A stretch of 64,000 nucleotides of DNA from a virus (IMGVR_UViG_3300025674_000015); one strand, 5' to 3'. Positions 14,348 to 33,619 are shown, counted from the first letter of the stretch. A program made the numbers and translations. The notes: generated by a model not told the origin, from the letters alone.

Positions 14348-14773
14348 ATGATAAAAGTCAAATTCCGCAGAAAACTTACCATTTTAGAAGACAAGAAGGC
14401 TTGTCCCCCTGCCACACAAGATTTAAAACTCAACACTAAAAATAGAAACTCTGCAATCAAAGCAGAACACATTCAGTACGGCCCTTTGAACCTTTCTGAT
14501 GAGGAATACTGGGAAAGAGCCGCAGAACATTGGAAAACAACACCAGAGGTTGCTAAGAAGTCTAAATGCGGCAATTGTGTTGCTTTTGATATTTCTCCAA
14601 GAATGGATGAGTGTATGCCGGGACCAGTTTCTGACGAAGACGGTCGTTTAGGTTATTGCTGGATGCATCACTTTAAATGTCATAGCGCCAGAACATGCTT
14701 TACTTGGGCCGCTGGTGGGCCGATCAAAGAAGATAGAGTGTCTATGGAGTGGCAGAAAAAGGGCGAAAAATAA
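14348..14773 (+). CDS. Cys/His-rich hypothetical protein
   Basis: CPP, CGNC, GYCWMHHFKCHSARTC; leader ends in ILE. Confidence 0.65.
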   Translation: MIKVKFRRKLTILEDKKACPPATQDLKLNTKNRNSAIKAEHIQYGPLNLSDEEYWERAAEHWKTTPEVAKKSKCGNCVAFDISPRMDECMPGPVSDEDGRLGYCWMHHFKCHSARTCFTWAAGGPIKEDRVSMEWQKKGEK

Positions 14774-16242
14774 TGCCTTATAAGATAAGAAAGATAAAGT
14801 GCAAAAAAGCAGATGGCTCTTCTGGAACTCATGTTGCTTATAAGAAGAGCGGCAAGCGTGTCGGTTGCACAGACGATCCGGAAGACTACAAAAAAGCCTT
14901 GTATGCTGCCGAACTAAACGAGCAAGAAGAGAACGAAGAAGCCATCATAAAAGATGTAGAAGATGAAGTCTTCTTACATTTTACAACGCGAGAAAGAGCC
15001 GAGAAGATAAAAGACATGAAAATGCTTTTAAAGTCTCCGCAAGATGTTCAAAAGTTTGGAACGGATACCATTGATGCAGTTTCTTTGATATGGGGAGAGT
15101 TTGTCCCAACAGTTCAAGTTAACCACATACTTGGTGAGGATATTGTAGCAGTCAAGTTCAGAACGCATCATCCACCTAAGTATGGTTTTGTCGAAGAAGT
15201 TAAATGGGATCAAGAAGAACTTCCAATATATGATATTGATATCATATCTTTTGAAGAGGCTGAAAGAGCATTGAAAAACACATCAGAAAAATATGATGAT
15301 ATGCAACAAATATTGTACAAGGAATCCAACATGAGAAAGCTTAAATTAAAAGATCCTTTGCCAAACTCTAAATACCAAAAAAAGGTTCGCAAAGGCCACA
15401 AAAAGAAAAAGAAAGAACTGATCGGATCAGGTGATGGCCCTGAGTCTTCTCCTTTCACTCAAGATCCTCCCTTTGAAAGATCAAAGTCTGCCCCTCCTTT
15501 AGGTGAAGGTAAAAAGAAAAAGAAGAAAAAAAGAAAAGTTAAAGTTAAAAAGAAATCAAAAGGTAAAGACGATCGTTGCACTCGTATTGCAAAAAGAAAA
15601 TATGATGTGTGGCCCTCTGCCTACGCTAGCGGCGCTGTTGTTAAATGTCGCCAAGGAAAGATTTGGAAAGGTATCACAGAAGAGCTTGATAAAAAAGAAA
15701 AAAGCGAAATTAAAAAGATTCAAAAAGAACTTGGGAATGCATCAGAGTCCCACAAAAAACTAGCGGATATCATGTCAGAATTGGAAGATGAGCTTGATGC
15801 ATTGGAAGATAAGTTTGAAGTTGAATTGGAAAAAGCCGCAGAAAAAATGAAAGCCGGCTCTAAAGCTCATGCAGACCAAGTTAAAAGATTGGACAAAATC
15901 ATTCAAGAAGAGGTTGAAGCCTTTTTGATGATGGAAAAGAAAAAAAAGAAAAAGAAAGCTAAAAAAAAAGTAAAAACTGACTTTTCCAAAGAAAAAGATA
16001 AAGGTCTCCATGGTTGGTTTGAAAGGCAAGGCGGCAAAGGAAAAAGCAAAGGTTGGGTTGATTGCAACACATGTCGGAAAGATAAAAAGACCGGAAAGAA
16101 AACTTGCAAAACTTGTGGAAGGCAAGAGGGTGAAAAAAGAGCAAAATATCCATCTTGTCGTCCAACACCGGCTGCTTGTGGAAGCAAGGGTAAAGGAAAG
16201 TCTTGGGGTAAGAAATCTGCTAAAAAGGGAAAGAAAAAATGA
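14773..16242 (+). CDS. Modular Lys-rich protein (possible ADP-ribosyltransferase-like module plus Cys-rich modules)
   Basis: ATG overlapping upstream TAA; LHFTT...EEV module; WPSAYASGAVVKCR and WVDC...CGR...YPSCRP modules. Confidence 0.6.
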   Translation: MPYKIRKIKCKKADGSSGTHVAYKKSGKRVGCTDDPEDYKKALYAAELNEQEENEEAIIKDVEDEVFLHFTTRERAEKIKDMKMLLKSPQDVQKFGTDTIDAVSLIWGEFVPTVQVNHILGEDIVAVKFRTHHPPKYGFVEEVKWDQEELPIYDIDIISFEEAERALKNTSEKYDDMQQILYKESNMRKLKLKDPLPNSKYQKKVRKGHKKKKKELIGSGDGPESSPFTQDPPFERSKSAPPLGEGKKKKKKKRKVKVKKKSKGKDDRCTRIAKRKYDVWPSAYASGAVVKCRQGKIWKGITEELDKKEKSEIKKIQKELGNASESHKKLADIMSELEDELDALEDKFEVELEKAAEKMKAGSKAHADQVKRLDKIIQEEVEAFLMMEKKKKKKKAKKKVKTDFSKEKDKGLHGWFERQGGKGKSKGWVDCNTCRKDKKTGKKTCKTCGRQEGEKRAKYPSCRPTPAACGSKGKGKSWGKKSAKKGKKK

Positions 16243-16934
16243 ATATTTCTAAAAAAAGAATCAAACAAATTATCAAAGAAGAATTAGAAGTTGTTTTGAG
16301 CGATCAAGAGGTTAAAGAGTTTTTTGGAGTAGATCCAAGTAATTTGAAAAAATCCTTGAACTCTGAAGTAGACAAAAGAATTGATATGCTAGAAGGTCAA
16401 TTGTCTGAAGGCATGAGATATCATATCAAAAACAACATTCCAGTTGATAAGAATATTTATCGCTTGAATTCTAAAAACTTCTTTTCTCTTTTTCGAGAAG
16501 CTAGAAGCTTGTACAAAAAAGATTTGGTGGTCTTATCAGAAAGTGAAAAGTATTATATCTCTGAAACTGACATTGGAGAGTTTGGAAGATATGGAAATAC
16601 AATGGTTCCTTTGGACTTCCCCATGGTTGAGGGCGAATCGATTTTGGAAGCAAAATACAAAGGAAAGAAAGTAACTTTAAACAGACCGCAAAGAGGCGGT
16701 TCTAAAAAGTTTTATGTTTATGTTAGAGATCCAAAGTCTGGAAACATTCGTAAAGTTTCGTTTGGCTCCAAAGGAATGTCTGTCAAGGTCGCTAGCCCGG
16801 AAAGAAGAAAGTCTTTCGCAGCACGACACAAATGCAAGGAAAAGAAAGACAAAACAAAAGCAGGATACTGGGCATGTCGCGTAGGGCGCTATCCACACTT
16901 GACCGGCTCTAAGTCTAGATTTACTTGGTGGTAG
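16239..16934 (+). CDS. Basic hypothetical protein with leader MNISKKRIKQIIKEEL (DUF6321-like C-terminus)
   Basis: KKFYVYV...KVSFG...RRKSFAARHKC...AGYWAC C-terminal module. Confidence 0.6.
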   Translation: MNISKKRIKQIIKEELEVVLSDQEVKEFFGVDPSNLKKSLNSEVDKRIDMLEGQLSEGMRYHIKNNIPVDKNIYRLNSKNFFSLFREARSLYKKDLVVLSESEKYYISETDIGEFGRYGNTMVPLDFPMVEGESILEAKYKGKKVTLNRPQRGGSKKFYVYVRDPKSGNIRKVSFGSKGMSVKVASPERRKSFAARHKCKEKKDKTKAGYWACRVGRYPHLTGSKSRFTWW

Positions 16935-16935
16935 T

Positions 16936-17214
16936 ATGGAATTTCCTTTCAAAGAAAAGAAACTAGAAGATAATATTGTGATCAGAGAGTTTAAAGAGGA
17001 TGTTGACTCTGAAGAACTTGTTTGGCATAGAGATAGAGAAAATAGAGAAGTTACAATTTTGCAATCTTCTGGTTGGCAACTTCAAATGGATAATGAAGTA
17101 CCAAAAGATTTACAAGAAGGAAAGACATATTATATTCCAGCCTTTGTTTACCACAGGGTGATTAAGGGTAGTGGCGATCTTATTGTTAAAATAAAAAAGG
17201 AGCTAATAAAATGA
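16936..17214 (+). CDS. Small cupin-like protein
   Basis: LVWHRD ... YIPAFVYHRVIKG cupin-type His motifs. Confidence 0.5.
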   Translation: MEFPFKEKKLEDNIVIREFKEDVDSEELVWHRDRENREVTILQSSGWQLQMDNEVPKDLQEGKTYYIPAFVYHRVIKGSGDLIVKIKKELIK

Positions 17215-18236
17215 AATTAATAATGGAAAATTGGAGAAAGTTTGTTTTAAAAGAAAACGCCGGAGATTGGTATGACTCTGAGGATAACGATTATCCAGCA
17301 GCAAGTCCACCTGAGTATGCATCAGGTCTTCAAAGTAAAGAAGTTATTTCTTTGAAGAAGGGTGATGTATATAAAAAGGAAGGCAACACGCATGGCTTGA
17401 CTAGTCATAATATTAAACATTTAATGGAAATAAACCAAGATGTTGTGTATACACATATCAATGCAGCGATTGAGCATATTAAAGACGAAGGTATGCCAGT
17501 TTATAAGTCAGAGGCTAATGGTGCCAGCACTACTAAAGAAATCAATCCGGACCAAATCACAAGGGGTCAAGTGTTAAACATGTTTGATTTGATCAACGAT
17601 AAGATGTTTCAGGGTCCTAACTTGAGCCCAGAAGAGGAAACTATTTTTAAAAACTTTATCGAACCAATGAATAAGGTCTACCATAATCAAATACTTTTTA
17701 CAATTGTACGCAAAGCCCAAGACATTTCTGACAAAAAAGTCGACTCTTACGATGATTTGAAAAAGATTCTAGAAGAAAGGCCAACTGTAAAAGTAAAGGG
17801 GACTTATTCAGGGAGAGATAACACTTATTATGTAAATACACAGAATTCAGTGGTGGTGTCACAATTGCAAAGCGGCAAATATGCAACACTCTTCAAGTCA
17901 GTTAAAAGAAAAGATGACAAAATCTCTTTACAACAAGCGATTAAACAGTTTGGAACTAATAAAGGTAGTCAAGCAACTGACGAATATAGTCTTTTTAGGC
18001 AATATGTTGATCAATTGAATGCTGCTGTACAGCCACAACCGAAAAAGAAAAAGAAACAACAAAACAATCAAGGCAAGCTCAGTGTAATGGACTTTGCTAT
18101 GGAAAAGCTTAAAATAGGTCTGCCGGAAGAAAAAGTAGTCGAAATCATAATGAAAGCGCATAACAAGCCAGAACACGCCGCGAAAGGGATCGTTGCTGGC
18201 GCTAAAAAAAGAATGAAAACTCAAGAAGGACAATAA
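17211..18236 (+). CDS. Hypothetical protein with leader MKLIMENWRKF
   Basis: 341 aa, AGGAG RBS, shared leader. Confidence 0.7.
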   Translation: MKLIMENWRKFVLKENAGDWYDSEDNDYPAASPPEYASGLQSKEVISLKKGDVYKKEGNTHGLTSHNIKHLMEINQDVVYTHINAAIEHIKDEGMPVYKSEANGASTTKEINPDQITRGQVLNMFDLINDKMFQGPNLSPEEETIFKNFIEPMNKVYHNQILFTIVRKAQDISDKKVDSYDDLKKILEERPTVKVKGTYSGRDNTYYVNTQNSVVVSQLQSGKYATLFKSVKRKDDKISLQQAIKQFGTNKGSQATDEYSLFRQYVDQLNAAVQPQPKKKKKQQNNQGKLSVMDFAMEKLKIGLPEEKVVEIIMKAHNKPEHAAKGIVAGAKKRMKTQEGQ

Positions 18237-18238: not shown

Positions 18239-20071
18239 ATGAAATTAATCATGGAAAACTTTCGTAAAGCAATGAAAGAATTCAAAGAAAGAGAAGCCGG
18301 CGTTATGTCGTATGATTCTTCTTTGGGCGGTTTTCGAGCTTCAGCAGAAGACATCTCAAAAATTAACGCTGCAATTGAAAAGATTTATACTGCTTTTGCA
18401 AAACTTACCGGCGGAGATATTGTTGACATTCCAACGTTGAATCCCGAAGCTTTATCTTCGGGTCAAGAAACTTTATCAGAAAATGTCGAGCTAGATCAAA
18501 AGTGGTCTGAATTGGAAGGGAAATTCTCTGAAGAACAGAAGAGAAACCTTTTCCTTCGATTTAAAGTCAATTCATGGGAAGAGCTGTCTGATGCGCAAAA
18601 AGAATTGGTGTTGGATCGATACAAATACTTTACTCCGGATAATCAACTTAAGCAGAAAATCGGAGCAGTCAGAGGCGTAGAAAAAGGTCTGGGAGGTATG
18701 ACTCCGGAAGATTTTGAAAAAGGGGAGTATGTTATTCCGGTTTCTAAAGAAGTTCTAGATGATTTTCAAACCATGGTTAATGAACTGAAAGAAGGCGGTG
18801 AAGTCGATAGCCTCTTTGAAAAGGCTAGAGATTGGTATCATAAAATTAGAGATCTCCTCGATGAAGAGACTGGAAACGATCAAGACGCTACTTTGCTTGG
18901 TCTTCTTATTGCGACATATAGCCCCAGAGCAAAATTTGCCTTGAACTTAGCTGAAGCTGCTTTTATGTTTAAAGCAGTTGAAATGGACGCAAAAGACAAC
19001 AAAGAACTTTTGAGAGAATATATTAACATCTTTCCGGGCGGTAAAAAGAAAGAACAGGGAGAGTTTCGAGGGTTTACGAACGCACACAAAGTTCCAAACT
19101 TTACTCTAAACCTGATCGCTCCAGATTTGGCCGGAGGCCGTGATGAGCAAGGAAGAATCAACTACAAAGAGCTTTACATGTGGAACTCTACAATCGACAC
19201 TTGGATGATTGATGCTTTTTATCCAAATGTCAAAGGTGTCACAACAGCAAAAGAATGGGAAACAATCAAAGGCAAGATGATGGGCAATGTTGTTAATTAT
19301 CGATACATGGCCGGACTAGTCGCACAGGAAGCGAAAAAGCTGGGTCTCTTACCTCACGAACTTCAAGCTATTGTATGGGTTGCTTCTCAAATCAGAAAGA
19401 CTGGAGAGAAAGGCCTTGGTGTTACTACTGAATTTGCAATCAACCAAATTAAACAATCCATTGTCAACCTAGAGAAGATTAAACAACAATTCAATGAAGA
19501 GGAAAGGATTAACAAGAAATTGGTCGGCCCTTATCTTGAAGAGTTGGATATGGACAAAGAATATACAGAACAGTTTGGAGATCAAAGCTGGCTTAAAGTT
19601 ATTTTGGATAAAATTGAATCAGATGGTTTTGATGTTGCTGCTGATTATATCTTGGGAATTAAAAAGGAAAAGAGTACTGTTGTTCCCGGTGTGCGCTCTA
19701 TCACAGCCTCCGGCCCGAAAGGGGAAGTTGATGCCGGCTTTCCCAATCCACCTCCCAAACCAAAAGCAGAAAAGGGAGCAAAAAAGAAAGATAAAAAAGA
19801 GAAAGTGGAGAAGCCACTTGAAGAATATCAAAATGCAGATAAATACGGAGAACTTAAAACATTTGAAGTCATGAATAATGTTATTCAAATGCCGACCGGA
19901 AAGTTCAACAACCTTCACGACTCAATTCTTATGTACTTGAGCGATGACTTCTCTAAAGAAAAGGCTGTTGATTATATTCTGGGCAGGTTCGACCCTCAAG
20001 CAACATCTTCCAAAGATTATTTCATCAAAGAAAGCAAAAGAAGATTTGTTGTAAGGATTTTGAGATCATGA
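18239..20071 (+). CDS. Hypothetical protein with leader MKLIMENFRK; central DNA-glycosylase-like (HhH-related) domain suspected
   Basis: RDWY...ATYSP...KVPNF...TIDTWM...ELQAIVW pattern. Confidence 0.55.
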   Translation: MKLIMENFRKAMKEFKEREAGVMSYDSSLGGFRASAEDISKINAAIEKIYTAFAKLTGGDIVDIPTLNPEALSSGQETLSENVELDQKWSELEGKFSEEQKRNLFLRFKVNSWEELSDAQKELVLDRYKYFTPDNQLKQKIGAVRGVEKGLGGMTPEDFEKGEYVIPVSKEVLDDFQTMVNELKEGGEVDSLFEKARDWYHKIRDLLDEETGNDQDATLLGLLIATYSPRAKFALNLAEAAFMFKAVEMDAKDNKELLREYINIFPGGKKKEQGEFRGFTNAHKVPNFTLNLIAPDLAGGRDEQGRINYKELYMWNSTIDTWMIDAFYPNVKGVTTAKEWETIKGKMMGNVVNYRYMAGLVAQEAKKLGLLPHELQAIVWVASQIRKTGEKGLGVTTEFAINQIKQSIVNLEKIKQQFNEEERINKKLVGPYLEELDMDKEYTEQFGDQSWLKVILDKIESDGFDVAADYILGIKKEKSTVVPGVRSITASGPKGEVDAGFPNPPPKPKAEKGAKKKDKKEKVEKPLEEYQNADKYGELKTFEVMNNVIQMPTGKFNNLHDSILMYLSDDFSKEKAVDYILGRFDPQATSSKDYFIKESKRRFVVRILRS

Positions 20072-20784: not shown

Positions 20785-20793
20785 GAGTTTAAC

Positions 20794-21225: not shown

Positions 21226-21244
21226 ATTAAAATAGGAGTTTAAA

Positions 21245-21957: not shown

Positions 21958-22394
21958 TTACCTTTAAACGCGTTTTAAGCACCATTCTAGCCACTTTCAT
22001 CACAATTTCGCCCTGCTATGCCAATAAGTCCACAAGACTCCAAAAAGGGGCAAAAGCGCCCTTCTCTGGAACGCTCTTGGATGATGAAGCAGTGGCAAAG
22101 ATTTTGGCAAAACAAGATTACTTGAAAAAAAGCTTGAAGCTGGATTGTTCTTATCAAAAACAAAAAGAAAAAGCAAAGCTTCAGTTGAAGATTGATCAAT
22201 GCAAAGTAGATTTCAAAATTGAAAAAGAATTGAGAAAAAACTTAAGAAAGATTGATCAAGAAGAGATCACAAGATTAAGAAAGATTGCAAAGCCGCAAAA
22301 CAATTGGACACCACTTTGGATCACAATTGGCTTTGTCGCAGGAGCAGGTACAACAATTTTAATTCTCTATGGAATACAAGGAATTCAAAAGTGA
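21954..22394 (+). CDS. Secreted coiled-coil protein with C-terminal TM (spanin-like)
   Basis: Signal-peptide-like N-terminus, coiled coil, C-terminal WITIGFVAGAGTTILILYGI. Confidence 0.4.
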   Translation: MITFKRVLSTILATFITISPCYANKSTRLQKGAKAPFSGTLLDDEAVAKILAKQDYLKKSLKLDCSYQKQKEKAKLQLKIDQCKVDFKIEKELRKNLRKIDQEEITRLRKIAKPQNNWTPLWITIGFVAGAGTTILILYGIQGIQK

Positions 22395-22846
22395 AGATCA
22401 GAAAAGAAACCATTTTCAAGATCATCAAAGAAGAGATCGAAAGAGAGCTTTCAAAAGAAGAAAAGCACAAGATTGTTTCTTTTGATTTTGATGATACTTT
22501 AACCTTTGCTCCGTTTGATCCAGAAGAAGAAGATTTTGTTTACAAAGGGCCTCACAAAGAAATGCTGAATAAGATTAGAGGCTATATTGAAGATCCAGAA
22601 GTTGTCGTTTATATTGTAACAAGCAGAAAGCAAGGTGGCATGGGAGAAGTTAAAGAGTTTGTAGAAAAATATAAATTAAAAGTTGACGGCATTTATTACA
22701 CAGACGGAGATTGGAAAGCCCCAACTTTGAAAGATTTGGGTGTGACTTTGCATCATGACGACGATAGTGAAGAGAATAAAAGAGCAGAAGCAGTAGGAAT
22801 CCAAACAGTTCCAAGTAATCCATATGGTGATTACGGCACATTTTAA
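22391..22846 (+). CDS. HAD-superfamily phosphatase with leader
   Basis: SFDFDDTL (motif I), IVTSR, K, HHDDD (motif IV); GTG start overlaps upstream stop. Confidence 0.75.
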   Translation: MKIRKETIFKIIKEEIERELSKEEKHKIVSFDFDDTLTFAPFDPEEEDFVYKGPHKEMLNKIRGYIEDPEVVVYIVTSRKQGGMGEVKEFVEKYKLKVDGIYYTDGDWKAPTLKDLGVTLHHDDDSEENKRAEAVGIQTVPSNPYGDYGTF

Positions 22847-22873: not shown

Positions 22874-23668
22874 ATGAAAAGTCATAATAGCAATATAAAA
22901 ATTAAAAAGAATCTTCTCTTCAAAATTTTGAAAGAAGAAATCAAAAAAGAACTTTTGAAAGAAGGTGTTTTAAGGATTCAAGATTATATTTCAAATGAAA
23001 ATTTGAAATTGATTGAAGATACGTTTCGCAACCTTTTAAATACATATTTAACTTCCGATAGAGAAGAAAGCCTTTATTGGAATGTTGAGAAATTTGAATT
23101 TATAAATGTTGCCGGAGAGGAGGAGGTTGTTGACTTGATGCTTTCCGTTGGTCGGCCACCAAGAGGAATGGAAGGGGCTGTTGCATATCTAGATGCTAGG
23201 CCCAGTATTGGCTATTACCACTTAGCAATGTGTGTGTTAAACAAGGAAGATTATGATATAGAGGACGGTATTGATACCATGATTAATCATGAATTAATTC
23301 ACTTGATAGATTCAAAATATTTTAAACGAAAAGACAGGAAAAAAGCTTACTTAGCTAGGCGAGAAGAAATTTTAGCTTTTTCTAGTCAGATATATAAACA
23401 GGTTGTTGACTTTTTAAATTCGGAAGATGAGCAGGACAAAGATTATTTGAATATTTTGCTTAATCTTTATAAAGATGGTGCGATAAAACAATTACAATTA
23501 TTTAAAGCTATATTAAAGACTAGTCAACAGCTTGGAGCGATAGGCAAAGATCCCAGATTTATAAAATCTATAATGCATCAACACACAATGAAAGATAAGC
23601 AACCTTATTTAAAACATCTTTACAAAAAATTGTGGCCATTGATTCAAAAGAAACTTAAGGAGGTTTAA
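22874..23668 (+). CDS. Putative zinc metallopeptidase with leader
   Basis: INHELIH (HExxH) plus downstream EEILAF. Confidence 0.55.
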   Translation: MKSHNSNIKIKKNLLFKILKEEIKKELLKEGVLRIQDYISNENLKLIEDTFRNLLNTYLTSDREESLYWNVEKFEFINVAGEEEVVDLMLSVGRPPRGMEGAVAYLDARPSIGYYHLAMCVLNKEDYDIEDGIDTMINHELIHLIDSKYFKRKDRKKAYLARREEILAFSSQIYKQVVDFLNSEDEQDKDYLNILLNLYKDGAIKQLQLFKAILKTSQQLGAIGKDPRFIKSIMHQHTMKDKQPYLKHLYKKLWPLIQKKLKEV

Positions 23669-24039
23669 TGAAAGATCAAAATTATGTTGTAAAAGTAGAA
23701 AAAGCTATTTCAGAAAAATGGGGCTCAGAAGCTATTCAAAACCCAAAAGCAAATTGGGACAAAGAAAAAGAAAAAGAATATCTAGAAGAGTTGAAAAGAC
23801 TTGAAGAAAAGAAGAACTTTGATAACGAGCATGAAATAGAAAAGAACGGGTTTTTAATTAAATCAAATCTAATTAATAAAAAGAAAGACAAAAGAGAATG
23901 TGAAGCATGTGGAATATTTTCTTTTGATAACAAAGATAACCTTTACCTTTCAAAGTTTGGAACTTGTTGGAAATGTTGGATTCAATGGGTTGAAGGAAGA
24001 GAAGAAAGGTGGAAAAAAGGATGGAGACCAAACAAATGA
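23668..24039 (+). CDS. Hypothetical protein with CxxC...CxxC
   Basis: CEAC and CWKC; AGGAGG RBS. Confidence 0.65.
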   Translation: MKDQNYVVKVEKAISEKWGSEAIQNPKANWDKEKEKEYLEELKRLEEKKNFDNEHEIEKNGFLIKSNLINKKKDKRECEACGIFSFDNKDNLYLSKFGTCWKCWIQWVEGREERWKKGWRPNK

Positions 24040-25226
24040 AATTGACAAGAAAAATCTTGAAAGAGATGATTGAAGAAGTGATCAAGGAAGCAGCGCCAAA
24101 CAAAACAGCTAGGAGGAAAGATCCAGCGCAGATGAAGAGGGAAAAGGACTACGCCGCCGCGGTCGCGTCGAAGAACCCTGAGACCTGGGCCAAATCAGAC
24201 CGCCTTGTCGGTGATCTGGCCGTGAAGAATATCCGTGGAATTTCTTTTATCGGCAACCTTATGACCGTCCCAAAGGGCTCCACCGGAATACCGGAAGATT
24301 TAAAAACAAAAATGCTTAATGATTTAAGCGGCTCGAAGATTTTAGAGGCCATGGCGGGGTATAAATTGGTCTACGGAGAGCCGACGGATGAAGTTGAACT
24401 AATTTTTGTTGCTTTATTCCATCTTAACCGCGCTATCAAACAAAGTAAAGGAACAGATATTATATATGGCTTTAACCTTCTGAATTATGGGGGAAATTAT
24501 TTCACAGATGTTTTTAATAAGATTTCAAAAAGAGGTAGAGTGATTCTTTTTGATATTTTAAGAAAAGCCGGGCTTCCTTTGTCTAAAATTGTAAAAGATC
24601 CAAATGTGGCTAAACATCTTTCCCATACTTCACGCAGGAAAACTAGTATTCCACGCAAGAGAGTCAGGAAATCTGCAAGCAGGTACAGAAATAGAGCCTA
24701 CGTCGGAGCAGTTCAAAAAATTGTTAATTTGTTTGTTAAGGCTGGACAAATTGATACTCCACTCTTAACAGTTGACCGGTCTTATGGCCCCAAAACTAGG
24801 ACAGGTGTTAAAGCACTTCAGAGGAAATTGGGAGTTAAGCCCGATCGGTACTTCGGACCGAAAACTGCATGCGCTTTAAGTTCTCTTCTGCAAAGAGAAT
24901 ATACACATGACTCTGAATATCAGACGAAAGATAAGAAATGGCGGTCAGAAAATTGCAAGAGTCCCAGATGGGTTATAACATTAGCCTTTGACACCGCGCT
25001 GGAGGACATGTTGAAACGCAGCAAACAAAAAAAGAAAGCCGGCCCGCCCCCGTTCAACAAGGAAGATGGCAAGGCAAGACAACTTGGTGATCTTTTCGGC
25101 TTCCATGCCGCGCATGGCGTGGATGCGGCAGGACGACCACTTCCCCCGCCACCTCCCAAGGAGAAAGATGCCAAGCGAGCTGATGATCTTCTCGCCCGTC
25201 AACGCGCACAGAAGCAGCGGCGCTGA
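24036..25226 (+). CDS. Leader-bearing protein with peptidoglycan-binding domain
   Basis: MKLTRKILKEMIEEV leader; VDRSYGPKT..VKALQRKLGVKPDRYFGPKT PG_binding_1-like repeat. Confidence 0.65.
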   Translation: MKLTRKILKEMIEEVIKEAAPNKTARRKDPAQMKREKDYAAAVASKNPETWAKSDRLVGDLAVKNIRGISFIGNLMTVPKGSTGIPEDLKTKMLNDLSGSKILEAMAGYKLVYGEPTDEVELIFVALFHLNRAIKQSKGTDIIYGFNLLNYGGNYFTDVFNKISKRGRVILFDILRKAGLPLSKIVKDPNVAKHLSHTSRRKTSIPRKRVRKSASRYRNRAYVGAVQKIVNLFVKAGQIDTPLLTVDRSYGPKTRTGVKALQRKLGVKPDRYFGPKTACALSSLLQREYTHDSEYQTKDKKWRSENCKSPRWVITLAFDTALEDMLKRSKQKKKAGPPPFNKEDGKARQLGDLFGFHAAHGVDAAGRPLPPPPPKEKDAKRADDLLARQRAQKQRR

Positions 25227-25296: not shown

Positions 25297-25815
25297 ATGC
25301 AAGCAAAAGAACTAGAAATCATCAGAGGAATCGCCCAAGCAGCTTCCATGGGTTACGATGGAGCTTTGGACGATGAAGGAAAGCCAATCAAAATTGGCTT
25401 GAAAAGAGACGAAGGAAATCCCATTGTTGACAGCCGACACATGGATGGCTTCAAAATTTCCTTCAAAGGTCCGGTCCTTTGTTTGAAATATCAAACAGAA
25501 GTAAAACTAAAAGACGTTCATCAAAAAGGATTTGAAAACGAAATCAGATCCACAATGAATTCAATTGCTTCTTTCCTTAAAAAAGAATACAAAAAAGTAA
25601 CAAAGAAAAACCTTAATTTAACTTCAATGGGCGAACCAAAGATTGACATTCAAAGAATTTCAAGTGTTCGTTCTGATCTTCATGCTTTCCAAGAGTTCAA
25701 AATTGGTGGCTTGACAAACACTTTGAAATATGGGCATTTAGAGTCCAAAGAAGAAAACGAAAGAAAGATTGAAGATTCAATCCGCAAATTTCTTGAATTA
25801 GGGAGAAAGAAATGA
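25297..25815 (+). CDS. Hypothetical protein
   Basis: ATG after AAGGA; codon style matches core genes. Confidence 0.65.
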   Translation: MQAKELEIIRGIAQAASMGYDGALDDEGKPIKIGLKRDEGNPIVDSRHMDGFKISFKGPVLCLKYQTEVKLKDVHQKGFENEIRSTMNSIASFLKKEYKKVTKKNLNLTSMGEPKIDIQRISSVRSDLHAFQEFKIGGLTNTLKYGHLESKEENERKIEDSIRKFLELGRKK

Positions 25816-26837
25816 AAAAGAACATTTTAGAAGAAGCCTTGAGAAAGCAAATTAGAGAGATCCTTAGTGAAGAAGTGATGTTGGAGCAGCCATTTCCCGG
25901 GCTGGCCCGACCCCCGCGCAAGGGCGAACGAAACATACCCGCCAAGGCAGCACCGGCCAAGGCAGCGCCCGCAAAAGCAGCGCCCGCAAAAGCAGCGCCG
26001 GCCAAGGCAGCGCCCGCAAAAGCAGCGCCGGCCAAGAAAGCACCGAAGAAAGCACGGAAGAAAAAGTCTAGATATCGAGACATAGATTATGTCCAAGCGG
26101 TTAGTGACATTGCAAACAAATATGGCGAAGGAATAAGTATCTTCGAAGATCCTTCTCAAGGTCTATATCGCGACTTAGAACGTGAGACTTATGATAAAAA
26201 ACTCAAAAAAAGCGTAATAAAATTACAAAAAAAATTGGGTCTTAGAGGTCGTGAAGTAGATGGTTGGTTCGGGCCTAAAACGGCTTGTGTGCTTAAGATG
26301 AGCTCATTCGTCAAGAGGTTTAAATACAAGATTAATGTAGGCTGTTTTAAAAAAGAATGGGTCATGAAATTAGCCGATTATCTTCGCGAAGAAGAGCAGG
26401 CAAATGCCAGAAAAGGTGCAAGTAAATCAAAGCCTAAAAAAGCTAAAGCCTCTTTTAATGCATATTATAATCAATTTATGCGTTGGAAAAAAAGAATTTC
26501 TAGAATTCAAATTCTAGCAATGAATGGGATTCACAAGGTCACCGACTTTGGCGTCCGGTCAGAATTGAGCGAAATACGAGCTAGCCTCGAAAGATTAAAG
26601 AGGAAAGCGGTAGCAGATAACAAATTAGAAAATCGAGAATCGTTAATACAACAGATTTCAGACGAAATCATCGTAGTTGATGATATGCTAAAAGATCCCT
26701 CTAATTATGATTCTAGTATCAAACCGAGAGGTTACAAAACTGCTAAAAAATCTAAAATAAAAGAATCCAAATTCTCCAATGACAAAGAACTTCAAAATCT
26801 AATGGAATCGTTCAAAAAATTTACAAGGAATGACTAA
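25812..26837 (+). CDS. Leader-bearing protein with AKAAP repeats and peptidoglycan-binding motif
   Basis: LRKQIREILSEE leader; (AKAAP)x6; LQKKLGL...VDGWFGPKT. Confidence 0.65.
   Translation: MKKNILEEALRKQIREILSEEVMLEQPFPGLARPPRKGERNIPAKAAPAKAAPAKAAPAKAAPAKAAPAKAAPAKKAPKKARKKKSRYRDIDYVQAVSDIANKYGEGISIFEDPSQGLYRDLERETYDKKLKKSVIKLQKKLGLRGREVDGWFGPKTACVLKMSSFVKRFKYKINVGCFKKEWVMKLADYLREEEQANARKGASKSKPKKAKASFNAYYNQFMRWKKRISRIQILAMNGIHKVTDFGVRSELSEIRASLERLKRKAVADNKLENRESLIQQISDEIIVVDDMLKDPSNYDSSIKPRGYKTAKKSKIKESKFSNDKELQNLMESFKKFTRND
25941..26030 (+). repeat. 15-bp tandem repeat x6 encoding AKAAP
   Basis: GCMAARGCAGCRCCS units read directly. Confidence 0.9.
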
Positions 26838-28439: not shown

Positions 28440-30512
28440 ATGAGTAATCAAAACAAAAAACAAAACAAACAAGAAAACAACCCTAGAAATGCTAGTTCTG
28501 TTCTCTATAAAAGGCTCACGCGCCTTTTGTCTGGCCCTCTGAATATATACAGAGCGCAAGATTATAGAAAACAAAAGCCTCATCAAATGGATAAGTACGG
28601 CTCCCTGTTCAAATCAGCGAGCGGTCAAGCGTTCAAGAAATCTTCATACGATCCCTTTAGCAATGTAAAGATCAATTACATCTCAAACCAAAACCGTTCT
28701 GAAAGATATGCAGATTTTGATCAAATGGAATACACTCCGGAGATCGCTTCGGCAATGGACATTTATGCAGATGAAATGACAACGCACACACTCACTGGAA
28801 AAATGCTGAAGATTGAAAGTAGAAATGAAGAAATCAGAACAATCTTGAATAACCTTTATGATAATGTTTTGAATGTTGAGTTTAACCTTTTTGGGTGGTG
28901 TCGCTCCATGTGTAAGTATGGAGATTTCTTTCTTTATTTGGATATTGATGATGCCTTGGGCGTTACAAATGTTATTGGTCTTCCTTCCATGGAAGTTGAA
29001 AGATTGGAAGGCGAAGATGAAACAAACCCAAATTATATTCAGTTTCAGTGGAACCAAGGTGGAATGACTTTTGAAAATTGGCAGGTTGCTCATTTTCGAA
29101 TCTTAGGAAACGACAAGTACGCTCCTTATGGCACCTCTATCTTGGAGCCAGCAAGAAGAATCTGGAGACAACTAACTCTTTTAGAAGATGCAATGATGGC
29201 ATATAGGATTGTTAGATCTCCAGAAAGAAGATTGTTCAAGATTGAGGTTGGTGGCATTGCACCAGAAGATGTTCCGCAATACATGGAAAGAGTTCAAACT
29301 CAATTAAAAAGAAATTCAATTATTGATTCTTCTACCGGTCGAGTTGATCTTCGTTATAACCCTCTCTCTGTTGAAGAAGATTACTTTCTTCCTATGAGAA
29401 ATGGAGTTGGCTCTGATATTGGTACATTGGCCGGCGGAACTTACACTGGCGATATTGATGATGTAAAATATCTTAGAGATAAGCTTTTCTCTGCCTTGAA
29501 GGTTCCGCAGTCTTATCTTTCTAGAGGTGAAGGTTCTGAAGAAGACAAAACAACATTGGCTCAAAAAGATGTTCGATTTGCAAGAACGATTCAACGACTT
29601 CAAAGATCTGTGATTTCAGAATTAGAAAAGGTTGGAGTTGTTCATCTTTATACTTTGGGCTATCGCGGAGATGATCTGATCAATTTTAAAATTGCCCTGA
29701 ACAACCCTTCGAAGATTTCTGAACTTCAAGAACTGGAACATTGGAGAACCAAATTTGATGTTGCTGCCGCTGCAACCGAAGGTTTCTTTTCAAAAAGATG
29801 GGTTGCAACAAATATGTTTGGCATGAGTGAGGGTGAATACCTTCGAAACATTCGCGAAATGTTCTATGACCGTCAAGTATCTGCTCAATTGGAACTTGAA
29901 ACACAAGCTGCTTCAGCTATTGGCGGAGGGGGCTTTGGAGGCGATATGGGAGGCGATCTCGGCGGAGGTGACCTAGGAGGTGACATGGGTGGAGATCTTG
30001 GCGCAGAAGGCCCCGGAGAAGGCTTGGGAGGCGAACCCGGAGGTGATCTAGGAGGAGATCTTGGTGGAGAAGCTCCAACACCCGAGCCCGGAGGCGGTGA
30101 AGCTGCCGGAGGGGGTGAAGCTGGTGGAGAAACTGATCTTCTCGCAGCGCCACCAGCAAAAAGGGATATTCCACCACCAGTCTATGACCATTCAATCTCT
30201 GGCTTGTCAAAGAAAAGAAGAATGCTGGATGAAGACGACGAAGATTATGATCGCTCAAAAGGTAAAAAGTATACTCCAGTTCGTCATGATAAAAGAACAT
30301 CTTCTGCGCCTAGGAAGAAAAGCTTTGATAAGCTTTACAACAAATCGGCAACAAAATCAACTAGACGAAATCTTTATCCCGGACTTTCTGGCTTAACTCA
30401 GCAAAGTTTGGGCATTTTTGAAAATGCCATGGCTTCCGAAGAAGAGAAGATCTTATCTACAAGCAAGGAACTAGTTAAACTCACTGAACAATTGGAGAAA
30501 ACTAAAAAATGA
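28440..30512 (+). CDS. Portal protein (T4 gp20-like) with Gly-rich C-terminal extension
   Basis: LEDAMMAYRIVRSPERR, EEDYFLPMR, DDVKYLRDKLFSALKVP. Confidence 0.92.
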   Translation: MSNQNKKQNKQENNPRNASSVLYKRLTRLLSGPLNIYRAQDYRKQKPHQMDKYGSLFKSASGQAFKKSSYDPFSNVKINYISNQNRSERYADFDQMEYTPEIASAMDIYADEMTTHTLTGKMLKIESRNEEIRTILNNLYDNVLNVEFNLFGWCRSMCKYGDFFLYLDIDDALGVTNVIGLPSMEVERLEGEDETNPNYIQFQWNQGGMTFENWQVAHFRILGNDKYAPYGTSILEPARRIWRQLTLLEDAMMAYRIVRSPERRLFKIEVGGIAPEDVPQYMERVQTQLKRNSIIDSSTGRVDLRYNPLSVEEDYFLPMRNGVGSDIGTLAGGTYTGDIDDVKYLRDKLFSALKVPQSYLSRGEGSEEDKTTLAQKDVRFARTIQRLQRSVISELEKVGVVHLYTLGYRGDDLINFKIALNNPSKISELQELEHWRTKFDVAAAATEGFFSKRWVATNMFGMSEGEYLRNIREMFYDRQVSAQLELETQAASAIGGGGFGGDMGGDLGGGDLGGDMGGDLGAEGPGEGLGGEPGGDLGGDLGGEAPTPEPGGGEAAGGGEAGGETDLLAAPPAKRDIPPPVYDHSISGLSKKRRMLDEDDEDYDRSKGKKYTPVRHDKRTSSAPRKKSFDKLYNKSATKSTRRNLYPGLSGLTQQSLGIFENAMASEEEKILSTSKELVKLTEQLEKTKK
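29922..30130 (+). repeat. Low-complexity GGD(L/M)GG / GGE repeats within the portal
   Basis: GC-rich imperfect repeats. Confidence 0.8.
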
Positions 30513-31928: not shown

Positions 31929-32212
31929 AAGATATTCTTCTTTTTGTTTTGATTTCTTATGGAATGACACAGATTTTGGTCTATGGAAAGATTTTTGACA
32001 AGATTAGACCAAGTTATCATTTCTTTCATTGTTCTATGTGTGTTGGCTTTTGGGTTGGTTGTTTTTTATTTGGAACGAATCCATATTCACAACTATTTAA
32101 TTTTAAATGGAATTTGTTAAATATTTTCTATTTTGGTTGCTTAAGTTCTGGAACTTCATACGCATTATGCAATTTGTTTGGAGATTCTGGTTTTAGACTA
32201 GAGAGGAGTTAA
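31925..32212 (+). CDS. Small membrane protein with CxxC
   Basis: Hydrophobic; CSMCVGFWVG. Confidence 0.6.
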   Translation: MKDILLFVLISYGMTQILVYGKIFDKIRPSYHFFHCSMCVGFWVGCFLFGTNPYSQLFNFKWNLLNIFYFGCLSSGTSYALCNLFGDSGFRLERS

Positions 32213-32214: not shown

Positions 32215-32271
32215 ATGTTTTGCAAGAAGTGGATGCTTCAGCCTGTAAGACGCTGCAAAGGTGGTTGTTAG
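32215..32271 (+). CDS. Putative 18-aa Cys/basic peptide MFCKKWMLQPVRRCKGGC
   Basis: GAGGAG RBS upstream of ATG 32215; below the ORF-track cutoff. Confidence 0.45.
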   Translation: MFCKKWMLQPVRRCKGGC

Positions 32272-32299
32272 CTCGCGCCGCTAACGGCGGCATTTAATC

Positions 32300-32330
32300 A
32301 AAACAGCGGGGCTGATCCCGCTGTTTTTTT
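32300..32330 (+). terminator. Rho-independent terminator
   Basis: AAAACAGCGGG-GCTGAT-CCCGCTGTTTTTTT. Confidence 0.8.
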
Positions 32331-32347
32331 ATTAGGAATGACTAAGC

Positions 32348-32947
32348 ATGGATAAATTTTTGATTAGAGAGTTTTTTGAGCTTTGTCCGGATGGAACATG
32401 CCAAGATCTCTTAACAGAGTCGGAAAAAAGAAAAATCAGAGACGAAGGTGTTGTTTACCTGACCGGTGTAATCCAAGCTGCTGACATGTTGAATGGAAAC
32501 CAAAGAGTTTATCCAAAAAATATCTTAGCTAGAGAAATTGAAAACTACAAAAACCTTTGTAAAGAAAGAAGGTCGGTTGGTGAATTGGATCATCCAGATG
32601 ATTCTGTTGTTAACCTTCGAAATGTTTCTCATGTTGTTTTGGATTGCTGGTGGGATAACAATCGCGTTCTTGGAAAGATTGAAGTTTTGAATACTCCCTC
32701 TGGAAAGATTCTTAAATCTCTAATCGAAAGTGGAATCAAGCTTGGGATCTCTTCTCGTGGCTTGGGTTCTGTTCGGAAAGAAATGGGAAAGACAATTGTT
32801 GAAGACGACTTTCAGCTTATTTGCTTTGACATTGTTCAAGAGCCTAGCACCAACAAAGCTTTCTTAAGCTTAACTGAAAACAAAAAAGTAAAAACCTACT
32901 CCAAAGAAGACAAGATCAGTCGAGCTTTGGATGATATTTTGTTATAA
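32348..32947 (+). CDS. Prohead protease (T4 gp21-like)
   Basis: NGNQRVYP, GELDHP, VSH, GISSRGLGS, FDIVQEPS. Confidence 0.92.
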   Translation: MDKFLIREFFELCPDGTCQDLLTESEKRKIRDEGVVYLTGVIQAADMLNGNQRVYPKNILAREIENYKNLCKERRSVGELDHPDDSVVNLRNVSHVVLDCWWDNNRVLGKIEVLNTPSGKILKSLIESGIKLGISSRGLGSVRKEMGKTIVEDDFQLICFDIVQEPSTNKAFLSLTENKKVKTYSKEDKISRALDDILL

Positions 32948-32960
32948 GGAAACAAAAAAA

Positions 32961-33263
32961 ATGAAAATCTCAAAAAAACGTTTAAAACAAATCATCGCTG
33001 AAGAGTTGAATCTCCTAGAAGTGGAAGAGCCAAAGAAGAAAAAACCAAAAAAAGCGGGACCGGTCTCTATTCAAGGGTTGATCGACAACCTTTTTCCGCT
33101 CCTCTCCGGAGTCACATTATCTGACGCAGAAATAAAGATGTTTCATGACCTCATGAAAGCCATGGCACATGCTGGAAACGACCGTGATATCGCTAACGAT
33201 CCGGGGGTTCAAAGACGGTATGAGAAGTTCATGAGAGTCTTGACAAAAAAAGGTGAAGAATGA
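32961..33263 (+). CDS. Small protein with leader MKISKKRLKQIIAEEL
   Basis: AAGGA RBS; shared leader. Confidence 0.65.
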   Translation: MKISKKRLKQIIAEELNLLEVEEPKKKKPKKAGPVSIQGLIDNLFPLLSGVTLSDAEIKMFHDLMKAMAHAGNDRDIANDPGVQRRYEKFMRVLTKKGEE

Positions 33264-33619
33264 AAAAAGAAAAGTTGAAAAAACTGATCAAGCCAATTGT
33301 CTCTGAATGCATCACAGAGATTCTAATCCAAGAAGGTTTGGTTGCACGAGTTCTTTCTGAAGCTAAAAGGGTTGAAACACCAGCGCCTGTTAAGGCAGAA
33401 AAGAAAGAAAACAACCAAGAAAAACTCAAAGCAGCTAGACAAAGAATGTTAGAATCTATTGGAAAAGATGCTTACAATGGTATTGATTTGTTTGAAGGAA
33501 CTTCTCCTATTCGAGATTCTGGAGGTCATGGCGCTCTCCAAGGTACAGACCCGAACGATGCTGGCGTGGATTTATCTTCTTTGCCCGGTATGAGCAACTG
33601 GTCAGATTTGATTAAATAA
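33260..33619 (+). CDS. Head-module hypothetical protein
   Basis: MKKEKLKKLIKPIVSECITE leader-like start. Confidence 0.65.
   Translation: MKKEKLKKLIKPIVSECITEILIQEGLVARVLSEAKRVETPAPVKAEKKENNQEKLKAARQRMLESIGKDAYNGIDLFEGTSPIRDSGGHGALQGTDPNDAGVDLSSLPGMSNWSDLIK

What the first reader, a model, noticed from the sequence alone, without database searches (positions are those of the whole stretch)
14348..33619. Family of unrelated proteins sharing two N-terminal leaders: a candidate capsid-targeting and cargo-delivery system
Seen: type-A leader (K-I-x-K/R-x-x-L/I-x-x-I-I-x-E-E) in MNISKKRIKQIIKEEL (16239), VKIRKETIFKIIKEEI (22391), IKIKKNLLFKILKEEI (22874), MKLTRKILKEMIEEV (24036), LRKQIREILSEE (25812), MKISKKRLKQIIAEEL (32961), MKKEKLKKLIKPIVSECITE (33260), and internally in 14773 (LDKIIQEEV). 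Type-B leader in MKLIMENWRKFVLKE (17211), MKLIMENFRKAMKE (18239) and C-terminally in 25812 (NLMESFKKF). Most leaders are followed by a hydrophobic-x-E site (LKE, MLE, LLE, IKE, LSE), after which the bodies are unrelated: HAD phosphatase, HExxH peptidase, PG-binding proteins, glycosylase-like and ART-like domains. Known: T4 internal proteins carry a short capsid-targeting sequence removed by gp21 after (L/I)-x-E, and Alt is packaged and injected. The scaffold and capsid N-terminus here have the same L-x-E sites, and a gp21 protease is at 32348. Inference: a portable tag loads a variable set of effectors into the head for injection at infection.
Basis: partly seen in the sequence, partly recalled or inferred. 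Interest (0 to 1): 0.85.

Follow-up and report, generated by a model that had tools for sequence, protein, structure and literature searches.

The report
Shared leader tags on phage proteins
An uncultured marine T4-type phage lineage starts hundreds of otherwise unrelated proteins with one of two 14-residue tags that end in the cutting motif of its head protease; this is most likely a much-expanded version of phage T4's "load into the capsid, then clip" signal, but no experiment shows it yet.

Summary
Five type-A tags (16239, 22391, 22895, 24036, 32961) and two type-B tags (17211, 18239) hold up. The 25812, 14749-internal and C-terminal 25812 motifs do not reach the profile noise threshold, and 33260 is a conserved orthologue, not a portable tag.

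In about 2 Mb of related IMG/VR contigs I found 380 distinct A-tagged (M-K-I-T-K-x-x-L-K-x-I-I-K-E-E) and 50 B-tagged (M-K-L-I-M-E-N-W-R-K-F-L-x-E) proteins.
- 97% of A tags start exactly on a start codon.
- The bodies fall into about 250 unrelated clusters, and four clusters hold both tags.
- Conservation is at the amino-acid level.
- Both tags place hydrophobic-x-Glu at residues 12-14, which is the T4 gp21 cleavage motif.
- An S77 (gp21-type) protease is present in the window and in most tag-bearing records that could be tested.
- Tagged genes cluster upstream of the terminase gene and beside the protease gene.

Best reading (about 0.6): these are clade-specific analogues of the T4 capsid-targeting sequence. 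Packaging, cleavage and injection are all inferred. The cargo is mostly acidic, unlike the T4 internal proteins.

This is a new variant of a known kind. The scan has noted similar tag systems on other T4-like DNA.

The parts
16239..16934 (+). Type-A tagged protein, 231 aa. Tag = residues 1-14/16, MNISKKRIKQIIKEEL. The body has a DUF5754/phrog_7595 C-terminal domain.
   Evidence: Profile 23.9 bits. Pfam/PHROG. The body homologue in phage immuto lacks the tag. In Melnitz the homologous body sits in a protein starting MKKFSEIIEA.
22391..22846 (+). Type-A tagged HAD-like protein, 151 aa. GTG start overlapping the stop of the previous gene.
   Evidence: Profile 13.0 bits. PHROG 1238 at 5.5e-7, PF06189 at 4e-4 (below cut-off), DFDDT motif.
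22874..23668 (+). Type-A tagged protein, 264 aa, with an HExxH motif. The tag begins at residue 8 (nt 22895).
   Evidence: Profile 16.7 bits. No Pfam, PHROG or PDB sequence match.
24036..25226 (+). Type-A tagged protein, 396 aa, with a peptidoglycan-binding-like domain.
   Evidence: Profile 14.1 bits. PF01471 at 3e-4 (below cut-off), PHROG endolysin families down to 3.7e-9 over residues 208-302.
32961..33263 (+). Type-A tagged small protein, 100 aa, immediately downstream of the prohead protease.
   Evidence: Profile 29.6 bits. A variable A- or B-tagged gene lies between the portal end and protease+1 kb in 22 of 41 related loci.
17211..18236 (+). Type-B tagged protein, 341 aa, starting MKLIMENWRKFVLKE.
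   Evidence: Profile 24.4 bits. Body unknown.
18239..20071 (+). Type-B tagged protein, 610 aa, starting MKLIMENFRKAMKE. Contains a DUF7178 region.
   Evidence: Profile 17.8 bits. PF23802 at 1.5e-6. A 51%-identical homologue in L159 also carries a B tag.
32348..32947 (+). T4 gp21-type prohead protease (Peptidase S77).
   Evidence: PF03420 at 2.1e-28, phrog_207 at 8.7e-54.
33260..33619 (+). Conserved head-module protein with a tag-like but distinct N-terminus. This is an orthologous family, not a portable tag, and is a probable prohead core component.
   Evidence: Orthologues (MKKSELKKVLKPLIKECIKEV...) follow the protease in nearly all related loci. A-profile score is only 3.3 bits. [LI]-x-E density is 3.4 per 100 aa against 1.3 for the proteome.
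25812..26837 (+). 341-aa protein with a degenerate A-like motif at residues 10-22 and a B-like C-terminal motif. Membership not supported.
   Evidence: Regex hit only. The B-like C-terminal motif scores 2.4 bits and the A-like motif does not reach the threshold for listing.
36142..37260 (+). Scaffold (gp22-like) protein, a predicted multi-site protease substrate.
   Evidence: Highest [LI]-x-E density in the window, 6.2 per 100 aa against 1.3. Conserved L-R-E, L-L-E and L-S-E|A sites across 7 orthologues.
37283..39130 (+). Major capsid protein (gp23 family) with an N-terminal propeptide.
   Evidence: PF07068 at 5e-73. Conserved L-L-(R/K)-E|A-S near residue 57-60 in about 20 orthologues.
28440..30512 (+). 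T4-type portal (context; used to fetch relatives).
   Evidence: PF07230 at 1.1e-74. 42% identity to the portals of Flavobacterium phage immuto and Microcystis phage Mel-JY01.

Best explanation
The two N-terminal tags are clade-specific counterparts of the phage T4 capsid-targeting sequence.

Proposed mechanism:
1. A 14-residue amphipathic leader docks its protein onto the scaffolding core while the prohead assembles. Type A is M-K-I-T-K-x-x-L-K-x-I-I-K-E. Type B is M-K-L-I-M-E-N-W-R-K-F-L-x-E.
2. The gp21-type protease (32348-32947) cuts after the Glu at residue 14 (hydrophobic-x-Glu) and frees the body inside the head.
3. The body is then probably ejected with the DNA.
4. Because the tag alone carries the address, it has been attached to hundreds of unrelated, fast-turning-over small proteins and a few enzymes.

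Shown here:
- The tags exist and are N-terminal.
- They are constrained at the protein level.
- They are interchangeable on one body family.
- They end in the T4-type cleavage motif in the same register.
- They co-occur with an S77 protease and cluster near the head genes.

Inferred, not shown: binding to the core, cleavage, presence in virions, and injection.
For: 1. 380 distinct A-tagged and 50 B-tagged proteins occur in about 2 Mb of related contigs. 97% of A tags begin on M/V/L start codons with a Shine-Dalgarno-like purine run upstream.
2. The conserved Leu8 is encoded by TTA, CTT, TTG and CTA, and Ile and Thr/Ser codons also vary. The constraint is therefore on the peptide, not the DNA or RNA.
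3. 393 bodies fall into 251 BLAST clusters. Four clusters hold both A- and B-tagged members; for example, a GNAT-like body carries A in L106 and B in L191 and L093.
4. Hydrophobic-x-Glu ends at residue 14 in 98% of 346 A tags. It ends at residue 14 in 72% of 50 B tags, with a further 18% at residue 15. The two tags are otherwise unrelated. A second such site ends at residue 21 or 22 in 42% of A tags, against 2% per position in the bodies. In jumbo relatives the similarity stops at model position 14-15.
5. T4 gp21 cuts after L/I-x-E, and T4 capsid-targeting sequences are 10-19-residue N-terminal propeptides (PMC9026906; T4 sequence MKTYQEFIAE in PMC8442874).
6. The window encodes an S77 protease. 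The capsid propeptide has a conserved L-L-(R/K)-E|A-S site, and the scaffold has the highest [LI]-x-E density in the window.
7. 95 of 120 IMG/VR stretches carrying the tag share genes with this clade. Of 8 further tag-bearing records that could be searched, 5 hold an S77 protease elsewhere, and the 3 without are only 11-62% complete.
8. Tagged genes concentrate just upstream of the terminase gene and beside the protease gene. None lie in the 6-12 kb of structural genes further downstream, and none are on identifiable replication or tail proteins in the window.
9. Tag copies without a Met occur internally and at C-termini. This fits a binding or cleavage module, and T4 Alt has propeptides at both ends (PMC9026906).
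10. The w16239 body family sits in a Melnitz (Kyanoviridae) protein that starts MKKFSEIIEA, which resembles the T4 targeting sequence.
Against: - No proteomic, cleavage or packaging data exist for any tagged protein.
- The tags share nothing with the T4 sequence beyond the MK start and the hydrophobic-x-Glu end.
- The residue after the proposed cut is Glu in 90% of A tags. The sites predicted here in the capsid and scaffold proteins, and the one T4 site cited (glutamyl-alanyl, PMC9026906), are followed by Ala.
- Tagged bodies are mostly acidic (median pI 4.9 for A and 4.7 for B; only 16% above 9), whereas the T4 internal proteins are highly basic (PMC8442874).
- In one relative (G004) tagged genes sit next to uvsX and an RNase H-like gene, and in jumbo relatives they form tight tandem arrays of small ORFs. 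In T4 that architecture is typical of early genes.
- No copy of the late-promoter-like CTATTTAT box lies inside 14.3-33.6 kb.
- Some bodies have hydrophobic, membrane-like segments.
Confidence: 0.6

Rival explanations
1. The tag is a shared interaction helix of a fast-evolving, tandemly duplicating family of cytoplasmic host-takeover proteins. It binds one common host or phage partner, or a membrane, and has nothing to do with the capsid.
For: - Tight tandem arrays of 14-20 small ORFs occur in jumbo relatives. Some neighbours share 25-28 N-terminal residues, which indicates recent paralogy.
- Tagged genes lie beside uvsX in G004.
- The bodies are acidic and small, with a median of 117 aa.
- No late-promoter box was found in the region.
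- The tag is an amphipathic Lys/Glu-rich helix.
Against: - It does not explain why two unrelated tags both put hydrophobic-x-Glu at residues 12-14.
- It does not explain the hot spot beside the protease gene.
- It does not explain tags on clearly different folds, namely HAD, GNAT, thioredoxin, pentapeptide repeat and PG-binding.
- It does not explain tag copies at C-termini.
Confidence: 0.2
2. The tags do target proteins to the prohead, but the tagged proteins are auxiliary core or scaffold components. They are degraded and expelled at maturation, like T4 gp67, gp68 and gp22, and are not delivered cargo.
For: - Many bodies are short, acidic and low-complexity, like scaffold fragments.
- A second hydrophobic-x-Glu site at residue 21-22 and multi-tag ORFs suggest multiple cuts.
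- The neighbouring conserved core-like genes 30509 and 33260 are rich in [LI]-x-E.
Against: - Enzyme-like bodies such as HAD, GNAT, thioredoxin and a cyclic phosphodiesterase have no obvious scaffold role.
- The extreme turnover, with 210 singleton clusters, is atypical of structural assembly factors.
Confidence: 0.12
3. The conserved N-terminus reflects a nucleic-acid-level feature, such as a translation-initiation region or a recombination site for cassette exchange, rather than a peptide function.
For: The codons are A-rich (AAA, ATT, GAA), as is common near efficient start sites. GAA is used for Glu14 in 41 of 43 cases.
Against: - Synonymous and cross-family codon variation occurs at conserved residues: Leu8 uses four codons from two families, and Ser uses TCN and AGT.
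- The two most similar window tags differ at many synonymous positions.
- Internal and C-terminal copies lack start codons.
Confidence: 0.03
4. The resemblance is a chance or compositional effect of Lys/Glu/Ile-rich N-termini in an AT-rich genome.
For: The genome is about 38% G+C and the proteins are rich in K, E and I.
Against: - Shuffles give 0.002-0.05 N-terminal hits against 5 observed.
- Profile scores are bimodal, with real hits at 12 bits or more and noise at 8 bits or less. Strand bias is 63 to 3.
- A degenerate 45-nt pattern expected less than once by chance (my own rough calculation, not a tool result) hits more than 120 IMG/VR stretches.
Confidence: 0.01

Closest known systems
Phage T4 capsid-targeting sequence (CTS) on internal proteins IPI, IPII, IPIII and the propeptides of Alt, removed by prohead protease gp21 (PMC9026906, PMC3012670, PMC8442874)
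   Same: - A short N-terminal leader is shared by otherwise unrelated, polymorphic proteins.
- The leader ends in hydrophobic-x-Glu.
- The same genome encodes a gp21/S77 protease, a gp22-like scaffold, a gp23-family capsid protein and a gp20-type portal.
- Occasional C-terminal copies recall the processing of Alt at both ends.
   Different: - The leader is 14 residues, not 10, and has no sequence homology to MKTYQEFIAE.
- Two distinct, interchangeable tag families exist.
- A genome carries 1-21 tagged genes, and the clade has about 250 or more body clusters, against a handful in T4.
- The cargo is mostly acidic rather than basic.
- The residue after the proposed cut is usually Glu.
- Nothing has been shown experimentally.
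Propeptides of inner-body and ejection proteins of phiKZ-like jumbo phages (phiKZ gp175, 201phi2-1, SPN3US gp245), cut at S/A/G-x-E (PMC9026906, PMC5694885, PMC7411985)
   Same: - Many head-internal proteins carry N-terminal propeptides.
- A diverged gp21 homologue removes them after Glu.
- The propeptides often hold redundant sites.
   Different: - Those propeptides are long and not a single shared short tag.
- The residue two positions before the cut is small (S/A/G) rather than hydrophobic.
- That system has been confirmed by mass spectrometry.
Phage P1 Dar antirestriction proteins packaged into the head (PMC9024508, PMC12810830)
   Same: Accessory, non-structural proteins are loaded into the capsid and delivered with the DNA.
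   Different: From my own recollection of the P1 literature (I listed these two papers but did not read them), loading depends on a hierarchy of partner proteins (Hdf, DarA), not on a common cleavable tag. The head type and protease also differ.
Encapsulin cargo-loading peptides (own knowledge, not tested here)
   Same: A short portable peptide addresses diverse enzymes to the interior of an HK97-fold shell.
   Different: The peptide is usually C-terminal, binds the shell protein directly and is not removed. There is no DNA and no ejection.

Membership tests
T4-type capsid-targeting/propeptide system | A short (10-19 residue) N-terminal leader is shared by otherwise unrelated proteins. | tested here: met
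   The conserved block is 14-16 residues. There are 380 A and 50 B proteins, 251 body clusters, and 97% of A tags start on start codons.
T4-type capsid-targeting/propeptide system | The leader ends in the prohead-protease motif (L/I-x-E). | tested here: met
   [LIVM]-x-E ends at residue 14 in 98% of A tags. [LIVMFA]-x-E ends at residue 14 in 72% of B tags, plus 18% at residue 15.
T4-type capsid-targeting/propeptide system | The same genome encodes a gp21-type (S77) protease. | tested here: met
   The window protease hits PF03420 at 2e-28. 5 of 8 further tag-bearing records have one, and the 3 without are fragments.
T4-type capsid-targeting/propeptide system | Sequence similarity of the leader to the T4 CTS (MKTYQEFIAE). 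| tested here: not met
   Comparison by eye of the consensus tags with the published CTS shows only the MK start and the hydrophobic-x-Glu end in common.
T4-type capsid-targeting/propeptide system | Tagged proteins are present in mature virions with the leader removed. | not testable with these tools
   No proteome exists for this uncultured clade. No virion proteome for the cultured phage immuto was found in the paper library.
T4-type capsid-targeting/propeptide system | The leader is sufficient to package a foreign protein. | not testable with these tools
   This needs a bench assay.
T4-type capsid-targeting/propeptide system | The leader binds the scaffolding core. | tested here: inconclusive
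   One complex prediction of the tag with the scaffold returned 'no answer'. That result is not evidence either way.
T4 internal proteins (IPI-III) as a protein class | Small, highly basic, DNA-associated mature proteins. | tested here: not met
   Median body pI is 4.9 (A) and 4.7 (B), and only 16% of A bodies have pI above 9. A few window bodies have Lys-rich tracts.
Peptidase S77 (T4 gp21) | A Pfam PF03420 match above the curated cut-off. | tested here: met
   99.6 bits against a cut-off of 27.

The most novel reading that the evidence does not exclude
Two interchangeable 14-residue address tags define an open, rapidly exchanging pool of capsid-packaged, co-injected proteins in an abundant uncultured marine T4-like lineage and its jumbo relatives. 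The pool spans hundreds of families and includes multi-tag polyproteins that the head protease would cut into several cargo units. If so, injected phage proteins, and probably many counter-defence factors, could be read directly from sequence.
Probability: 0.45. Interest if true: 0.75.

Novelty: new variant of a known kind. Interest (0 to 1): 0.6.

Why it matters
Proteins that phages inject with their DNA act before any phage gene is expressed, and several known ones disarm host defences. Outside T4, P1 and a few jumbo phages they cannot be recognised from sequence.

A tag that marks capsid cargo would label hundreds of 'dark matter' proteins of abundant marine phages as first-minute effectors. 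It would also:
- show that the T4 capsid-targeting principle is general, diversifies by clade and can exist in two parallel versions;
- offer new portable packaging tags for engineering;
- point to a cultured model for testing, Flavobacterium phage immuto, which carries short-form tags.

If the reading is wrong, the tags still mark a very large, unexplained protein superfamily defined only by its first 14 residues.

Tried and rejected
- Complex prediction of the tag (alignment A3) with the scaffold (A2) gave 'no answer', score 0.00. It is not used as evidence.
- tblastn of a 22-residue tag against cultured phages found no match, probably because of the low-complexity filter and the E-value limit.
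- Megablast of the region against cultured phages found no match.
- PDB sequence searches of bodies 18239, 17211 and 22874 found nothing significant.
- An ESM Atlas search with 18239 found only unnamed viral clusters.
- The T4 late promoter TATAAATA is not enriched on the gene strand. A CTATTTAT box precedes several structural genes but none of the tagged genes, so expression class could not be assigned.
- A Pfam and PHROG census of 142 long tagged proteins found mostly nothing, and no family annotated as an internal virion protein.
- No whole genome is held for this window, so the other tagged gene array noted by the scan 44 kb upstream could not be examined.
- My automatic 'same body without tag' classification produced artefacts and was dropped.
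- Tenacibaculum phage pT24 and Methylophilales phage Melnitz lack the A tag.
- A literature search for the tag strings and for capsid-targeting sequences in metagenomes found no prior description.

Full report
**What the window is.** All long ORFs lie on the + strand. The head genes are of the T4 type:
- Portal_T4, 1e-74;
- Gp23 major capsid protein, 5e-73;
- T4-type large terminase;
- Peptidase S77 (gp21) at 32348-32947, 2e-28.

The nearest cultured phages are Flavobacterium phage vB_FspM_immuto and Microcystis phage Mel-JY01, at only about 42% portal identity. There is no nucleotide match to any cultured phage. IMG/VR holds hundreds of related contigs at 54-73% portal identity, so this is a large uncultured group. 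Its sources look marine: several member proteins come from Tara Oceans data and the nearest cultured phage is from the Baltic Sea.

Five hits are within the first 30 residues, against 0.05 in shuffles. That test is post hoc, so I turned to relatives.
- In 80 portal-centred loci the regex gives 63 hits on the gene strand and 3 on the other.
- 45 of the 63 lie exactly seven residues after a start codon.
- The five residues upstream, which the regex did not specify, read M-K-I-T-K.

A profile built from 43 such N-termini gives bimodal scores, 12 bits or more against 8 or less. In the window it recovers 32961, 16239, 22895, 24036 and 22391. Those five were part of the training set.

A type-B profile recovers 17211 and 18239, plus about 50 N-termini elsewhere.

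- The 25812 N-terminus matches the regex only.
- The internal motif of 14749 matches the regex only.
- The C-terminal B-like motif of 25812 is below noise.
- 33260 belongs to a conserved orthologous family that follows the protease in almost every related locus. It is a core gene with a tag-like N-terminus, not a portable tag.

**Anatomy of the tags.** Over all fetched DNA (about 2 Mb) there are 380 distinct A-tagged and 50 B-tagged proteins.
- 97% of A tags start on M, V or L, with a purine-rich Shine-Dalgarno-like stretch 9-12 nt upstream.
- Consensus A (n=346): M94 K89 I/L90 T/S91 K/R88 x Q/R/K82 L95 K/R87 Q/E/K82 I87 I94 K/R73 E97 E90 [LIVYM]. Conservation collapses after that into an acidic, Gly-rich stretch.
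- Consensus B (n=50): M-K-L-[LI]-[FML]-E-N-W-[RND]-K-[FY]-L-x-E.
- Conserved residues use several synonymous codons. Leu8 uses TTA, CTT, TTG and CTA. The constraint is therefore on the peptide.

**Portability.** 393 tagged bodies of 40 residues or more fall into 251 BLAST clusters, 210 of them singletons. Four clusters contain both A- and B-tagged members. In the clearest case a GNAT-like body carries A in one contig and B in two others.

The body of 16239 occurs without the tag in phage immuto. It also occurs in pelagiphage podoviruses and in archaeal spindle viruses, whose N-termini I did not inspect. In Methylophilales phage Melnitz it is part of a 650-residue protein starting MKKFSEIIEA, which resembles the T4 capsid-targeting sequence MKTYQEFIAE.

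Copy number per genome runs from 1-2 up to 18-21 in 240-290-kb relatives, where the tagged genes form tight tandem arrays.

A capped search of 5.8 billion proteins returned 536 hits. The top ones are ORFs with two to four tag copies. Such multi-tag ORFs make up only about 3% of tagged ORFs in my loci. A few internal or C-terminal copies lack a Met.

**The link to head maturation.** This is the key new result. The two tags are unrelated in sequence, yet both place hydrophobic-x-Glu at residues 12-14.
- It is there in 98% of A tags.
- It is there in 72% of B tags, with a further 18% one residue later.
- In the jumbo relatives the similarity ends at model position 14-15.
- A second such site ends at residue 21 or 22 in 42% of A tags, against 2% per position in the bodies.

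T4 gp21 cuts after L/I-x-E, and T4 targeting sequences are 10-19-residue propeptides (PMC9026906). In this clade:
- the capsid propeptide carries a conserved L-L-(R/K)-E|A-S;
- the scaffold has conserved L-x-E sites and the highest [LI]-x-E density in the window, 6.2 per 100 residues against 1.3;
- the conserved head-module proteins 30509 and 33260 have the second- and fourth-highest densities.

Tagged genes concentrate in two hot spots, just upstream of the terminase gene and flanking the protease gene. 22 of 41 loci have a variable A or B gene there. None occur in the next 6 kb of structural genes.

95 of 120 IMG/VR stretches carrying a strict DNA pattern for the tag share genes with this clade. 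Of eight others that could be searched, five have an S77 protease elsewhere on the record, and the other three are 11-62% complete.

**What argues against the reading.** Nothing shows packaging, cleavage or injection.
- The residue after the proposed cut is Glu, not the Ala seen at the predicted capsid and scaffold sites.
- The bodies are mostly acidic (median pI 4.9) and small (median 117 residues), unlike the basic T4 internal proteins (PMC8442874).
- In one relative, tagged genes sit beside uvsX. The tandem small-ORF arrays of the jumbo relatives look like T4 early regions.
- A CTATTTAT box precedes several structural genes, including the scaffold and a large downstream structural gene (43428) that I take to be the tail sheath. 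None lies within 14.3-33.6 kb. The tagged genes are instead packed head-to-tail in one string with the terminase and portal genes, which suggests but does not prove co-transcription.
- The one complex prediction gave no answer.

**Cargo.** Of 142 long tagged proteins, Pfam recognises only a few:
- GNAT, 2;
- DUF7178, 2;
- pentapeptide repeat, 1;
- thioredoxin, 1;
- a cyclic phosphodiesterase, 1;
- DUF6321, PGDYG, PG_binding and a HAD/5'-nucleotidase, 1 each.

No PHROG family annotated as an internal virion protein is hit.

**Comparison with known systems.** The concept is established for T-even phages. Reviews describe the internal proteins as a diverse set sharing only the targeting sequence, and suggest the sequence is an evolutionary device for loading various proteins (PMC3012670, PMC9026906). 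Here the following differ:
- the tag sequences;
- the existence of two interchangeable tags in the same register;
- the scale;
- the acidic cargo;
- the multi-tag ORFs.

I found no description of these tags in the searchable literature.

Earlier notes of this scan report analogous tag systems in other uncultured T4-like phages, and a second tagged array elsewhere in this genome. Those are unchecked AI notes and do not count as support.

**Verdict.** I put about 0.6 on a T4-like target-and-clip signal, and less on delivery into the host. This is a new variant of a known kind. A cultured relative, phage immuto, carries short-form tags (MKKSQLRQIIKEAL and MENFDLKKFLVENKL types), which makes the hypothesis directly testable.

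Noticed in passing
window 33633-33842 (+): A ribosomal protein S21 gene (PF01165, 5e-8) sits inside the head module between the 33260 gene and the next structural gene. It is conserved at that position across the clade and in Mel-JY01.
   Followed up: partly
window 32255-32335: Two G+C-rich hairpins lie between the small membrane-protein gene (31925-32212) and the protease gene. The second is followed by a run of seven T and looks like a terminator. It would split the portal operon from the protease and tag genes.
   Followed up: no
window 3161, 5944, 36101, 43383, 48073, 56934 (+): The box (A)CTATTTAT(A/T)T lies 20-45 nt upstream of several structural genes (the scaffold at 36142, a probable tail sheath at 43428, and others). 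It is a candidate late promoter and differs from T4's TATAAATA. None lies within 14.3-33.6 kb.
   Followed up: partly
window 20068-22394 (+): A possible lysis cassette lies among the tagged genes. It comprises 20068 (Cys/His motifs reminiscent of an NlpC/P60-type peptidase), 21245 (single-TM, holin-like), 21553 (N-terminal TM plus coiled coil) and 21954 (lipobox-like SPC plus a C-terminal TM, unimolecular-spanin-like). There are no Pfam hits, so this is read from sequence only.
   Followed up: no
P0001-P0004, P0010; L024:64-1947: Some ORFs contain two to four complete tag copies, each usually still starting with Met, separating unrelated modules. These are candidate polyproteins or recent in-frame gene fusions.
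   Followed up: partly
L085 (G002) 10046-11077 (-) and window 14749-16242: The G002 homologue of the Lys-rich 14749 protein carries a tag-like motif (MNFTEEKLLQIILEEI) about 60 residues in, after a small Cys-rich module. The window copy has only a weak LDKIIQEEV at residue 381.
   Followed up: no
P0108, P0113: Tagged proteins of the 195,690-bp record G002 are named in NCBI as 'MAG: hypothetical protein [Balneola sp.]'. This is either a host hint or a phage contig binned into a bacterial MAG.
   Followed up: no
L114 (IMGVR_UViG_GVMAG-S-1030632-100_000001): A contig labelled as a giant-virus MAG carries an A tag and a homologue of the window's HAD-like body (40% identity). It may be a misassigned phage contig.
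   Followed up: no
L001/L207 (phage immuto) and L208 (phage Melnitz): Cultured relatives have their own shared N-termini. Immuto has MKKSQLRQIIKEAL, MKKSELVKLIKEEL and MENFDLKKFLVENKL. Melnitz has MKKFSEIIEA and MKKFSELTSELIE on adjacent genes.
   Followed up: partly
window 11130-14306 (+): A single 1058-residue ORF combines an Mre11-like phosphoesterase with a Rad50/SbcC-like AAA domain (a gp47-gp46 fusion). It is conserved across the clade and directly precedes the variable island.
   Followed up: no
window 30509-31345 (+): A conserved 278-residue protein after the portal (MK(L/V)KHNKKRNTAF...) has the second-highest [LI]-x-E density in the window. It is a candidate prohead core protein of unknown family.
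   Followed up: no
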